From NCBI RefSeq assembly GCF_057098645.1, contig NZ_CM169472.1: a DNA stretch of 64,000 nt, one strand, 5' to 3'. The position numbers were made by a program. This document shows positions 10,801 through 13,800 of this stretch, piece by piece. Position 1 is the stretch's first letter. Each line of letters opens with the position of its first letter.

Positions 10801-13800
10801 AAGGTCGATATACGCCTGGTTGCGGTAGTAGTTGTTGACGTCGGCCACCACGGCCTTACCGAACATATTGGTGTAAACCGCCGCACCGTTTCCTTCCACC
10901 GGAACACCGGCCACGCCATCGGCATCAATCAGCAGGCGCGTACCGCCCATATTCTGGGTACGGTGGAGCGCGCCACCCTGCGCGGTCAGCGTCGCGCCGC
11001 CCTGTAAGGAAATACCTGCCGAGGTGTACTGTCCTTCATGATAGTTGGCGCTGAGGTCCACCTGCGCCAGCGAGCCATCGTGGCTGTAATAGCCGTCAAC
11101 GCTGGAGTGATTGTCGCTGGTCCCCACGTTCAGCTGGTAGTGAGTTGCGTCATCGACACGGCTGAAATACCCCACCTGGCTGCTGTCCGAACCGCTGCCG
11201 TAGTTGCCGTTATAGCTGATGGTGCTGCTGTCACCCCACGGCATGCTGAGCGATATGTACACACCTTTATCGGCCTGGTTATCATACTCGTAGCGGTATC
11301 CGGTCATGGAAATGCTCATATTGCGGATACTGCCCAGGTTGAAGTAGTGCGAGAGCATGACGTTGTAGTTGGTCTGTTCGTCGCGATCCCAGTAGGTATG
11401 GCGGGTGTAGTTTAGATAAACAGACACACCGGCATCCCTGAAGTTCTGGTTGTAGGTGGCGGTGTACATCTCTTTGTCGTTGCCAGTGCGCACCATTTCG
11501 CTGTCGCTGGCATCGAGATACTCGCTCATGGTCATGAAGTTCTCTTCCGAGAAGCGGTATCCGGCAAAAGTGACGCGGCTGTTCAGTTCATCGAAGTCTT
11601 TGGAATAGCTCAGGCGAAACGAGTTGCCGTCCAGTGAACCTTTCCCGTAGGCGGTCTCTTTATCCAGACGGGTATGCGAGTGGGTGATATCAAAGGCCAC
11701 CGCACCAAACACAGACAGGTCGCGACCGACGCCAAGCGCCGCCGACTGATAGTGTTCATCTGCCAGCGCCCCGCCGTATAGCGACCAGCCGTTGGCAATC
11801 CCCCAGGAAGCTTCGCCGCCGGAGAAGAAACCGCCTTCCACGTGGTGCCCCCACTCCTGCGGGCGGCCCATCATCAGTTTATAGCGCACCTGGCCGGGGC
11901 GAGTCAGGAACGGCATCGAGGCGGTGTTGATGTCATATTCCTGCACCTGACCGTTCTGTTCTTCAATGCGGATATGCAGCGTACCGGAGACCGAATCGCC
12001 AAGATCCTGGATGCGGAACGGCCCCGCCGGGACCTGGGTTTCGTAGATGACGCGGCCCAACTGGCTGACGGTCACTTTCGCGGTGGTGTGCGCCACGCCG
12101 GAGATATCCGGCGCATAGCCGCGCAGATTCGGCGGCAACATTTGATCGTCGGTGCTGATACTGCCACCCACGTAGTTAAAGCCGTCGAAAATATCAGAAT
12201 TCAGGTAGTCTTCGCCAAGGCCAAGTTTGGCTTTTAGCGACGGTAAGGCTCGCCAGGCGTAGTAGCGGCTCCACTCCCAGTTTTTTTGCGTGTCATCACC
12301 GTTGATAACATCGTCATCATTGCTTTTACTATGCAAATAATCAGTCTGCCAGTCGGCACGAAGACGCCATGCGCCGAGGTTCACCCCAACCGTCCCGTTA
12401 CCGCTAATTTCATTGCTGTCATCCCCGCCATTTTCTTCATGTCGTGTCTGGGCGGTAATACTGTAGTCAGCAATTAAACCAGATATACCGTCATCCCTGC
12501 GTGAAGGCGGATCCCAGTTGATGTCGGTATATTCAAGGTAAGCCTGGGGTAATGAAATGACTAACGCTGACTGACTCAGGTCAGCTTTAATATCAATGCC
12601 TTCCAGTTGACCGGGTTTCAGGCATTTGCCGTCGTGGATCCATTGCAGGTTTTTTGCCACATCCTCTTTTAAGCCAAACTGCGCGACCAGTTCAGGCGTC
12701 AGGCAGGCATAGGTTTTACTGGCATCGTTCTCTGAGGCGTACCAGTAAATATCGTATTCTTCCGTCAGCGGCTGTTTATTTAGTTGAACCTGTAAATTGT
12801 ATTTCCCAGGCTCGACATAACCCTGGCTGGAAAATCGCTTCAGATCGATTTTTGTGTCGCCTTTTAACTCCAGAAAACGGGAATCAAACTGAATTTCATC
12901 TTCAGCCCAGGCATTGACATAACTCCCGGACATTGCCAATGCAACGCAGCAGGGAAGTACCCGCAGTCGGAAAAGAGAATGGTCAGGCATACACGTATCC
13001 ATCCGTAATTATTATAATTTGCGCGAATTCCATTTAAAAACCCCATAGCCCGAAAGCTATGGGGGTATCACTTAGAGATAAGTAATCTGGAAGGTCGTGT
13101 TGGCTTCAAAATTACCTAAATCTGGCGCATCAGCAGCGCCCACCAGCCAGGCTTTAAAGTCCAGCGTCTGCTTCGCTTTGCCTTTGTTGGTCGCCGTATC
13201 GTTTACGATTTTCTGTTCGATACCCGCGCCGCTTTTATAAGAGGTTCCCTGAGCGTCACCAATGGCCAGGCTGACATTGTTAAATGCCGCACCAGTATCG
13301 GTATTATAAATGGTGTAGTAATTGCCGCTGTTGGTAGAAGACGCGTTACCGGTGAAGGTAGTGGTCATCGTTGTCTGGGTGTCAAACACACAGTCTTGCA
13401 GATGGATCTGGAAAGCTTTCGGTGTAGAAGTCCCGTTGTTTTTCAGGATCCCTGAACCAATGTCACCCATATCAACTTCCAGTTTGTGATCATCAGGAAC
13501 GATGGAGCACGGGGAATCTTCAATGGTGCCGTAGAAACGTGCTGTACCATTGTTGCCAGCGGCGATTGTTGAAGTAGAAGCGAACGCACCCATTACCATT
13601 GTTGCAGCAATAGCTGTTTTTACAAACTTACTCATTATTTGTCCTTAAACCATAAATAATTAAAAATATAAACATTGCAATACATTGATTCAGTCAATAG
13701 CAATTATTTATACCCAGCCATTGAATAAGCTATCCGATCTAACTAACAAGAAAATAGGTCGCATAAGAAGATATTCTTTGGTGTGGGCGGATGGTGATAT

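What the first reader, a model, noticed from the sequence alone, without database searches (positions are those of the whole stretch)
13041..13064. Stem-loop between the major subunit gene and the usher gene
A 9-bp GC-rich hairpin followed by a U-run on the operon strand sits just after yfcV. Partial terminators at this position in chaperone-usher operons keep major subunit mRNA in excess over usher mRNA.
Basis: seen in the sequence. Interest (0 to 1): 0.2.

Follow-up and report, generated by a model that had tools for sequence, protein, structure and literature searches.

The report
Attenuator hairpin after fimbrial subunit gene
A conserved RNA hairpin with a run of U sits just after the main fimbrial subunit gene yfcV and most likely stops or stabilises part of the transcripts there, so the cell makes more subunit than assembly machinery; this is an ordinary, well-precedented arrangement.

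Summary
On the operon (minus) strand, 13064..13041 forms a 10-pair stem (9 Watson-Crick pairs plus a U.G pair closing a UUCG loop, about -17 kcal/mol). It starts 7 nt after the yfcV stop codon, is followed by UUUUUAAAU, and lies 50 nt before the usher start codon. Sites this strong occur 10 times in the window, against 0.7 in shuffles.

The hairpin is a selected RNA structure on the sense strand. All 29 distinct yfcV-usher spacers from 109 junctions keep it. Eight of 12 pairs show changes on both sides. Non-Watson-Crick pairs are G.U 9:1 over A.C, and the loops vary freely. Operons with subunits only 28-42% identical carry unrelated hairpins at the same place.

The U-run is not conserved. This U5 allele occurs in about 7.5% of complete E. 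coli genomes. The common alleles have AUUUAAAU or UAUUUAAAU, and E. albertii and one distant relative have no U-run.

Best reading: an intra-operon partial intrinsic terminator that also acts as a 3' stabiliser for yfcV mRNA. How much of the effect is termination and how much is processing is unresolved, and no 3'-end data exist. It is a new member of a known kind (compare papA-papH and fimA-fimI/FimR2). Interest is low.

The parts
13041..13064 (-). Stem-loop CCCCAUAGCU-UUCG-GGCUAUGGGG: 9 Watson-Crick pairs plus 1 U.G pair, with a UUCG loop
   Evidence: Covariation. Strand test.
13032..13040 (-). Tail UUUUUAAAU immediately 3' of the stem. This is the U-tract of the putative intrinsic terminator, and it is allele-specific.
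   Evidence: Its variability among alleles is shown.
13065..13071 (-). 7-nt spacer (GUGAUAC) between the yfcV stop codon and the stem. It is short enough for a terminating ribosome to cover the 5' arm of the stem.
   Evidence: In other alleles the spacing is 4-11 nt, with one exception. The position effect of terminators close to a stop codon is described in PMC4824070.
13072..13635 (-). yfcV, the fimbrial subunit gene and first gene of the operon
   Evidence: Pfam PF00419 match.
10351..12990 (-). Usher gene (yfcU orthologue, intact here). The annotated ATG is at 12990; the ORF listing begins at an in-frame ATG at 13002.
12991..13010 (-). Conserved usher translation-initiation region (AAUUACGGAUGGAUACGUGU), containing the Shine-Dalgarno-like GGAUGGA
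   Evidence: Alignments.
13011..13038 (-). Sigma-70 promoter-like match TTTAAA-16-TATAAT (10 of 12), overlapping the terminator tail. Its function is unknown.
   Evidence: TATAAT is kept in 8 of 12 diverse alleles and absent from the commonest allele.
14234..14266 (-). sixA terminator hairpin (14 pairs, then a T-run). It insulates the yfc operon from upstream transcription and is included as context.

Best explanation
The hairpin is an intra-operon 3'-end module for the yfcV message. Transcription starts upstream of yfcV. When RNA polymerase has transcribed 13064..13041, the stable UUCG-capped hairpin forms in the nascent RNA. In this allele it is followed directly by five U, so a fraction of polymerases release the transcript there by Rho-independent termination. 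The rest read through into the usher, chaperone, minor-subunit and adhesin genes. The same hairpin then sits at the 3' end of the short yfcV transcript, and of any read-through transcript cut in the A/U-rich spacer. There it blocks 3'-to-5' exonucleases, so yfcV mRNA outlasts and outnumbers the distal mRNA. The stem begins only 7 nt after the stop codon, so a ribosome finishing yfcV can transiently cover the 5' arm. This would make termination incomplete and dependent on translation.

Shown here: the anatomy, the rarity by chance, the selection on the sense-strand RNA structure, and the positional conservation across distant operons. Inferred: termination itself, its partial efficiency, the stabilising effect and the stoichiometric consequence.
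For: Anatomy: a 10-pair stem with 6 G-C pairs, a UUCG loop and a U5 tail on the operon strand.

Rarity: 10 such sites in the window against 0.73 in shuffles.

Conservation: all 29 distinct spacers from 109 yfcV-like junctions have a hairpin of -15 to -31 kcal/mol just after the stop codon. These junctions were collected with a coding-sequence pattern that is blind to the hairpin.

Covariation on 19 alleles: 87% of cells are paired, 8 of 12 pairs have changes on both sides, 0 of 500 shuffles reach the observed values, and slid controls give 42-52% paired. RNAalifold on 150 nt finds only this helix.

Strand: in the 9 core pairs there are 160 Watson-Crick, 9 G.U and 1 A.C.

Distant operons in Proteus, Serratia, Klebsiella pasteurii and Providencia, with subunits 28-34% identical, and a 42%-identical relative (L033) carry unrelated hairpins at the same place, with z from -1.9 to -7.9.

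It is the only long spacer in the operon; the other gene junctions are 22 nt or less, or overlap.

Precedent in data: a Term-seq 'primary' 3' end lies 55 nt after the fimA stop and 10 nt before fimI in K-12. FimR2 is processed from that spacer by RNase E (PMC9723502).

Indirect expression hint: in CFT073, yfcV rose by log2 5.2 on TosR induction. In the fimbrial operons listed there, yfc among them, most genes were unchanged or below the read cut-off (PMC5956150).

Position effect: terminators a few bp after a stop codon are repressed by the ribosome (PMC4824070).
Against: No 3'-end mapping or read-through measurement exists for yfc. yfcV is absent from the K-12 Term-seq tables, and the EHEC Term-seq supplement is not held.

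The U-run is not conserved. The commonest E. coli alleles have AUUUAAAU or UAUUUAAAU, E. albertii has CCUCAAUA and L033 has GAAACAAC. Termination therefore cannot be the universally selected function.

The 7-nt distance from the stop codon could suppress termination almost completely while yfcV is being translated.

A promoter-like site right after the hairpin offers another way to express the distal genes.

The CFT073 hint comes from a different allele, and no per-gene values were available.
Confidence: 0.6

Rival explanations
1. The hairpin is a processing and stability element only. Polymerase reads through essentially always. The polycistronic RNA is cut by an endonuclease such as RNase E in the A/U-rich single-stranded spacer after the hairpin. 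Exonucleases then trim back to the stem, leaving a long-lived yfcV mRNA while the distal RNA decays. On this reading the U-run in this allele is incidental.
For: The hairpin is conserved where the U-run is absent or poor (E. albertii, L033, the K-12-type alleles). The fimA 3' end mapped in K-12 follows a weak hairpin with no U-run, and FimR2 is generated from that spacer by RNase E. The spacer 3' of the hairpin is A/U-rich and unstructured in the consensus fold. Close proximity to the stop codon disfavours termination.
Against: This allele has a textbook U5 directly on the stem, and several independent alleles have U4-U6 (L034, L112, L055, E69). Most E. coli tails still have 3-5 U in the first five positions. 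The two mechanisms are not exclusive and sequence alone cannot separate them.
Confidence: 0.25
2. The hairpin is an efficient terminator that ends a monocistronic yfcV transcript. The usher and later genes are transcribed from their own promoter, TTTAAA-16-TATAAT at 13038..13011.
For: The promoter-like match scores 10 of 12 with a consensus -10. TATAAT is kept in 8 of 12 diverse alleles.
Against: The scan finds 19 promoter-like sites in 8 kb against 12.7 expected, so its specificity is low. The -10 is lost in the commonest E. coli allele and in the E69 type, and its presence does not track U-tract strength. The transcript would have a leader of only about 14 nt. A/T-richness upstream of a ribosome-binding site is common for other reasons.
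Confidence: 0.07
3. The hairpin is the 3' end of a small regulatory RNA derived from the yfcV 3' region. This would be analogous to FimR2, which derives from the fimA 3' UTR.
For: FimR2 sets a precedent in the equivalent spacer of the fim operon. A hairpin plus U-tail is the usual 3' module of enterobacterial sRNAs.
Against: Only 7 nt of non-coding RNA precede the stem, so any seed region would lie in the highly variable yfcV coding sequence. The loop, a usual interaction site, is hypervariable. There is no Rfam match and no expression evidence.
Confidence: 0.05
4. The feature is a DNA-level palindrome, such as a protein operator or recombination site, or a chance inverted repeat with no RNA role.
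For: The arms form a perfect 9-bp palindrome. Symmetric changes in both half-sites of a palindrome would look the same as compensatory base-pair changes.
Against: Non-Watson-Crick pairs are G.U 9 times and A.C once, which is what sense-strand RNA pairing predicts and DNA symmetry does not. Loop length and sequence, and stem length, vary between alleles. Unrelated sequences form hairpins at the same place in distant operons. Chance expectation is about 0.7 sites per window.
Confidence: 0.02

Closest known systems
Intercistronic terminator and stable papA mRNA of the E. coli pap (P-pilus) operon, at the papA-papH junction. Source: Baga et al. 1985 and 1988, Nilsson and Uhlin 1991, recalled from my own knowledge; these papers are not in the searchable library.
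   Same: A stem-loop lies directly after the major-subunit gene of a chaperone-usher operon. The outcome is an excess of subunit mRNA over the assembly-gene mRNA, produced by partial termination plus differential mRNA stability. Pap-like plasmid operons examined here (Serratia L136, Providencia L138) show a hairpin at exactly that junction.
   Different: In pap the next gene is the minor subunit papH, not the usher. The stable papA mRNA also depends on RNase E cleavage between papB and papA, and yfc has no upstream papB-like cistron. Nothing has been measured for yfc.
The fimA-fimI spacer of the type 1 fimbrial operon: a mapped 3' end and the 3'-UTR-derived sRNA FimR2 (Adams et al. 2021, PMC7815308; Raad et al. 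2022, PMC9723502).
   Same: An RNA 3' end forms in the spacer after the major-subunit gene of a chaperone-usher operon. The Term-seq 'primary' 3' end lies 55 nt after the fimA stop, and the spacer RNA is processed by RNase E.
   Different: The fim spacer structure is weak (z = +0.4) and has no U-run. The yfc hairpin is strong, covarying and U-tailed in this allele. No sRNA or CsrA link is known for yfc.
Canonical Rho-independent terminators, for example lambda tR2, and the effect of their distance from the stop codon (Li et al. 2016, PMC4824070).
   Same: A G+C-rich stem, a tetraloop and a U-run abutting the stem on the sense strand downstream of a stop codon.
   Different: This one lies inside an operon and only 7 nt from the stop codon, a position where tR2 was largely repressed by ribosomes. 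Its U-run is interrupted after five U by AAA and is not conserved among orthologues.
Differential mRNA decay in other fimbrial operons: CFA/I cfaA-cfaB, K99 fanC, and daa/F1845. Source: Jordi et al. 1993 and Bilge et al. 1993, recalled from my own knowledge.
   Same: A stem-loop 3' of the major-subunit cistron protects that segment of a polycistronic transcript and raises subunit output.
   Different: Gene order and processing enzymes differ in those operons. They are plasmid-borne systems of other fimbrial clades.
REP/BIME elements acting as intercistronic 3' stabilisers, for example malE-malF (own knowledge).
   Same: A stable intercistronic hairpin can protect upstream mRNA.
   Different: The yfc hairpin is not a repeated element. 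It occurs once in the window and once per genome, with no REP consensus. A REP-like element does lie at the far end of the operon, after yfcO.

Membership tests
Rho-independent (intrinsic) terminator | Stable G+C-rich stem (about 5-14 pairs) with a short loop (3-8 nt) on the transcribed strand | tested here: met
   10 pairs, 6 of them G-C, with a UUCG loop. The hairpin alone folds at -16.6 kcal/mol.
Rho-independent (intrinsic) terminator | U-rich tract beginning 0-2 nt after the stem | tested here: met
   UUUUUAAAU abuts the stem in this window. Among orthologues the tract ranges from UUUUUU to none, so the feature is met for this allele but not for the family of orthologous sites.
Rho-independent (intrinsic) terminator | RNA 3' ends in the U-tract, or factor-independent release in vitro | not testable with these tools
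   yfcV is absent from the K-12 Term-seq tables because the operon is silent there. The EHEC Term-seq supplement is not held.
Intra-operon attenuator or stabiliser hairpin after the major-subunit gene of chaperone-usher operons (pap and fim type) | Located directly after the major-subunit gene and before the assembly genes, on the operon strand | tested here: met
   It lies 7 nt after the yfcV stop and 50 nt before the usher ATG. The same position is occupied by a hairpin in 29 of 29 alleles and in 5 distant operons.
Intra-operon attenuator or stabiliser hairpin after the major-subunit gene of chaperone-usher operons (pap and fim type) | Structure maintained by selection (covariation) on the sense strand | tested here: met
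   8 of 12 pairs have changes on both sides, and 0 of 500 shuffles reach the observed values. G.U outnumbers A.C by 9:1.
Intra-operon attenuator or stabiliser hairpin after the major-subunit gene of chaperone-usher operons (pap and fim type) | Subunit mRNA more abundant or longer-lived than distal mRNA, with some read-through | tested here: inconclusive
   The only evidence is an indirect literature hint: yfcV was induced in CFT073, while in the fimbrial operons listed there (yfc among them) most genes were unchanged or below the read cut-off. No per-gene values could be retrieved.
REP/BIME repeated extragenic palindromes | Multicopy element with the REP consensus | tested here: not met
   There is one match in the window at up to 3 mismatches and one place per genome.
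Described RNA families (Rfam 15) | Match to a curated covariance model | tested here: not met
   There is no match over the hairpin even at E <= 1. The two weak hits in 12800-14400 lie elsewhere and are below the gathering score.
3'-UTR-derived sRNA (FimR2-like) | A discrete small transcript ending at the hairpin, with a conserved seed region | not testable with these tools
   No expression data are available. The loop and the upstream coding sequence are variable, which argues against a conserved seed.

The most novel reading that the evidence does not exclude
The hairpin may be a universal 3'-end module of major-subunit genes in this branch of chaperone-usher operons, with the tail behind it evolving as a tuning knob. 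Lineages such as O157:H7 and O145:H28 (U5) and E69 (U6) would terminate strongly. The common commensal and K-12 alleles would terminate weakly. E. albertii-type alleles would not terminate at all and would rely on processing. This would give heritable, lineage-specific subunit:usher ratios, or in some lineages a FimR2-like small RNA released from the yfcV 3' end.
Probability: 0.12. Interest if true: 0.45.

Novelty: new member of a known kind. Interest (0 to 1): 0.2.

Why it matters
Fimbriae need hundreds to thousands of copies of the major subunit for each usher. A leaky stop or a protective hairpin after the first gene is the classical way an operon achieves that ratio. This analysis extends the principle from pap and fim to the little-studied Yfc fimbriae, whose yfcV gene is widely used as a uropathogen marker. 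It shows that the hairpin in Yfc is strictly conserved and covarying while the U-run varies. It also gives a concrete, testable element for anyone who wants to express, silence or engineer these fimbriae. It does not change current understanding of terminators or of fimbrial regulation.

Tried and rejected
1. A long-range helix pairing the end of yfcV with the usher ribosome-binding site appeared in the single-sequence fold. It is not conserved and is absent from the consensus fold of 12 alleles, so I rejected it.

2. A second small hairpin spanning the stop codon is also not conserved.

3. REP or other repeat-element origin was rejected because the sequence is single-copy.

4. There is no Rfam family match.

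5. I computed a d'Aubenton-Carafa-type discriminant from a formula recalled from memory. It scored even the obvious sixA terminator negative, so I use only its U-tail term and raw U counts for ranking alleles, not the absolute score.

6. I looked for a correlation between U-tract strength and presence of the downstream TATAAT, which would be expected if strong terminators needed an internal promoter. None was found.

7. Direct evidence was sought in the literature. The K-12 Term-seq tables contain no yfcV or yfcU entry. Of seven fimbrial major-subunit genes looked up there, only fimA has a sense-strand 3' end. The EHEC Term-seq and Dar & Sorek supplements are not held. The CFT073 temperature study does not mention yfc. 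Reviews of pap and fim regulation do not discuss intercistronic terminators. The classical pap, CFA/I and K99 papers are not in the searchable library, so they are cited from memory only.

8. Hafnia locus L139 was fetched but set aside, because the matched gene there is the last fimbrial gene rather than the first.
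Full report
**What is there.** The window is collinear with, and across the yfcV-usher junction identical to, the chromosome of E. 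coli O145:H28 RM12761, and close to O157:H7 genomes. The yfc chaperone-usher operon runs on the minus strand:
- yfcV at 13635..13072
- usher at 12990..10351
- chaperone at 10328..9576
- three small subunit genes
- the adhesin gene yfcO at 8062..7223

Pfam confirms the subunit, usher and chaperone assignments. It has nine Watson-Crick pairs, six of them G-C, plus a U.G pair closing a UUCG tetraloop. The tail UUUUUAAAUG follows directly. The stem begins 7 nt after the TAA of yfcV, and the usher ATG lies 50 nt beyond the stem. The 81-nt spacer is the only long one in the operon.

**More than chance.** The hairpin alone folds at -16.6 kcal/mol. A 46-nt context gives -17.7 kcal/mol, z = -2.9. Sites with a stem of at least 9 pairs, at least 5 G-C pairs and at least 5 T in the next 8 nt occur 10 times in the window on both strands. 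Dinucleotide shuffles give 0.73 +/- 0.81. The real sites include obvious gene-end terminators such as the one after sixA. The sequence is unique in the window and occurs once per genome. It matches no Rfam family. On the plus strand no T-run follows, so it can act only on the operon transcript.

**The hairpin is a selected RNA structure.** I collected yfcV-usher junctions without reference to the hairpin. Seven loci came from a protein-anchored scan of one genome per species. A further 120 metagenome stretches matched the last codons of yfcV, using the pattern TTCCAGATYACNTAYCTNTAA. Of these, 109 are true yfcV-like junctions, giving 29 distinct spacers.
- Every spacer has a hairpin of -15 to -31 kcal/mol starting 4-11 nt after the stop codon, with one exception at 11-17 nt.
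- On an alignment of 19 distinct alleles, 87% of cells are paired and 8 of 12 pairs show changes on both sides. None of 500 column shuffles reaches the observed values, and sliding the 3' arm by 1-3 columns drops pairing to 42-52%.
- The changes include G-C to A-U (GPEC1185). The E69 type carries an extra U-A pair within the C/G run, which lengthens the stem.
- L033 and L121 have an almost complete replacement of the stem sequence. The L033 subunit is 42% identical and its usher 57% identical to those in the window.
- Loops differ in sequence and length in nearly every lineage.
- RNAalifold over 150 nt of 12 diverse alleles returns this helix as the only substantial consensus structure, the only other predicted pairs forming a 3-bp helix. 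The long-range pairing seen in the single-sequence fold is not conserved.
- In the nine core pairs the non-Watson-Crick cells are G.U nine times and A.C once. That pattern is expected for pairing in the sense-strand RNA. It is not expected for a DNA palindrome or an antisense RNA.

**The same position in distant operons.** Plasmid-collection records from Proteus mirabilis, Serratia marcescens, Klebsiella pasteurii and Providencia rettgeri carry operons whose first subunit is only 28-34% identical to YfcV. Each has an unrelated hairpin 5-21 nt after that gene's stop codon, with z from -1.9 to -4.3. Two of these operons (Serratia, Providencia) have a pap-like gene order, so their hairpin sits at the papA-papH-equivalent junction.

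**The U-run is allele-specific.** The tails after the stem are listed below.

| Allele | Tail after the stem |
|---|---|
| Window allele | UUUUUAAAU |
| E69 type | UUUUUUAG |
| L055 | UUUUUAG |
| L112 | UUUUUAAAU |
| L034 | UUUUAUAAA |
| B2 type | UUUAUAAC |
| Common allele B | UAUUUAAAU |
| Common allele A | AUUUAAAU |
| Pseudocitrobacter | AUUUUGG |
| E. albertii | CCUCAAUAU |
| L033 | GAAACAAC |

Among 5,426 complete E. coli genomes, exact 61-nt matches give these counts:
- window allele: 406
- common allele A: 1,453
- common allele B: 1,112
- B2-type allele: 530

Full terminator anatomy is therefore a minority state, found in O157:H7, O145:H28 and relatives. Most E. coli alleles keep an A/U-rich tail with 3-4 U in the first five positions. 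Some relatives have no U-run at all. What is universally conserved is the hairpin.

**Experimental context.** I found no paper that addresses this element.
- The yfc operon is H-NS-bound and cryptic in K-12 (PMC3946193). Accordingly, no yfcV 3' end appears in the MG1655 Term-seq tables.
- The same tables list an abundant 'primary' 3' end after fimA. I placed it 55 nt after the fimA stop and 10 nt before fimI, behind a weak hairpin with no U-run.
- That spacer yields the RNase E-processed sRNA FimR2 (PMC9723502).
- In UPEC CFT073, TosR induction raised yfcV by log2 5.2. In the fimbrial operons listed in that study, yfc among them, most genes were unchanged or below the read cut-off (PMC5956150). 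This fits an excess of yfcV mRNA but is indirect, and per-gene values could not be retrieved.
- Li et al. showed that a terminator placed a few base pairs after a stop codon is strongly repressed by the terminating ribosome (PMC4824070). That is relevant to the 7-nt spacing here.

**Mechanism.** The best-supported reading (confidence 0.6) is an intra-operon 3'-end module. In this allele the hairpin plus U5 terminates a fraction of transcripts. The fraction is limited by the short, A-interrupted U-run and by ribosome occlusion. The hairpin then protects the 3' end of yfcV mRNA, so subunit message exceeds usher message.

The main rival (0.25) is that termination is negligible. On that reading the hairpin acts only as an exonuclease barrier after endonucleolytic cutting in the A/U-rich spacer. 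This explains best the alleles without a U-run. The two mechanisms are compatible, and sequence cannot apportion them.

Minor rivals are:
- a full stop plus an internal promoter, TTTAAA-16-TATAAT at 13038..13011 (0.07)
- a FimR2-like sRNA (0.05)
- a DNA palindrome or a chance repeat (0.02; contradicted)

**Comparison and novelty.** Functionally the element matches the papA-papH terminator with its stable papA mRNA, the fimA-fimI 3' end, and the differential-decay hairpins of the CFA/I, K99 and daa operons. The pap, CFA/I, K99 and daa cases are recalled from my own knowledge and were not retrieved. It meets the sequence criteria of an intrinsic terminator in this allele. The biochemical criterion could not be tested. 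It is not a REP element and not a described RNA family. It is a new, previously uncharacterised member of a well-known kind.

Interest is low (0.2). The only mildly non-obvious result is the contrast between the strictly conserved, covarying hairpin and the freely varying U-tail. That contrast could mean lineage-specific tuning of subunit:usher ratios (probability about 0.12).

Noticed in passing
window 13011-13038 (minus strand): A sigma-70 promoter-like match, TTTAAA-16-TATAAT (10 of 12), starts inside the terminator tail and ends 21 nt before the usher ATG. TATAAT is kept in 8 of 12 diverse alleles but lost in the commonest E. coli allele. Its presence does not track U-tract strength.
   Followed up: partly
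window 13029-13042 (minus strand); L137 2075-2088: The 14 nt GGTTTTTAAATGGA immediately 3' of the hairpin are identical in a Klebsiella pasteurii plasmid operon. That operon's subunit is only 30% identical and its hairpin sequence is unrelated. Variants of UUUAAAUGGAWUU recur in several yfc alleles. This could be a conserved cleavage or binding motif, or chance (E = 0.035 in a small search).
   Followed up: partly
window 12998-13004 and 13029-13031 (minus strand): Three GGA motifs lie in the 81-nt spacer, two of them in the conserved usher Shine-Dalgarno region ACGGAUGGAUAC. FimR2 from the equivalent fim spacer binds CsrA, so CsrA control of usher translation is conceivable. This was not tested.
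   Followed up: no
window 13072-13635 and flanks; L002-L004: yfcV is unusually polymorphic. Its DNA is about 84% identical to the common allele and the protein is 68-89% identical. The neighbouring SixA protein is identical (same accession) in all four genomes compared. The window allele is present in only about 7.5% of complete E. coli genomes. This suggests diversifying selection or allele exchange at the subunit gene.
   Followed up: partly
L004 2065-2532: Strain MEI7BO1-21 carries a yfcV with a 32-residue internal deletion, annotated as a 155-aa fimbrial protein. The downstream hairpin is still intact.
   Followed up: no
window about 7160-7200 (minus strand): The far end of the operon, after yfcO and facing convergent smrB, has a REP-like sequence (GCCGGATAAGGCGTTTACCCCGCATCCGGC) rather than a hairpin-plus-U terminator. 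The strongest terminator-like signal of the operon therefore follows its first gene, not its last.
   Followed up: partly
window 14234-14266: The hairpin after sixA has T-runs on both strands, which is the anatomy of a two-way terminator. It separates sixA from the roughly 600-nt A/T-rich, reportedly H-NS-bound region upstream of yfcV.
   Followed up: no
window 13983-14010 (plus strand): The best sigma-70-like match in the yfcV upstream region (TTGAAA-16-TATAAT, 11 of 12) is on the strand opposite to yfcV and points back towards sixA.
   Followed up: no
window 12990 versus 13002: The usher reading frame has two in-frame ATGs. The mechanical ORF list starts at 13002, whereas the RefSeq annotation and the conserved MPDHSLFRLR N-terminus start at 12990.
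   Followed up: yes
L009 (JAIJJM010000567.1): A 2.2-kb contig labelled 'MAG: Collinsella sp.' carries an E. coli B2-type yfcV-usher junction. This is almost certainly a binning contaminant.
   Followed up: no
window 20964-22244 (plus strand): A 426-aa gene annotated only as 'hypothetical protein' lies between fadL and mlaA.
   Followed up: no
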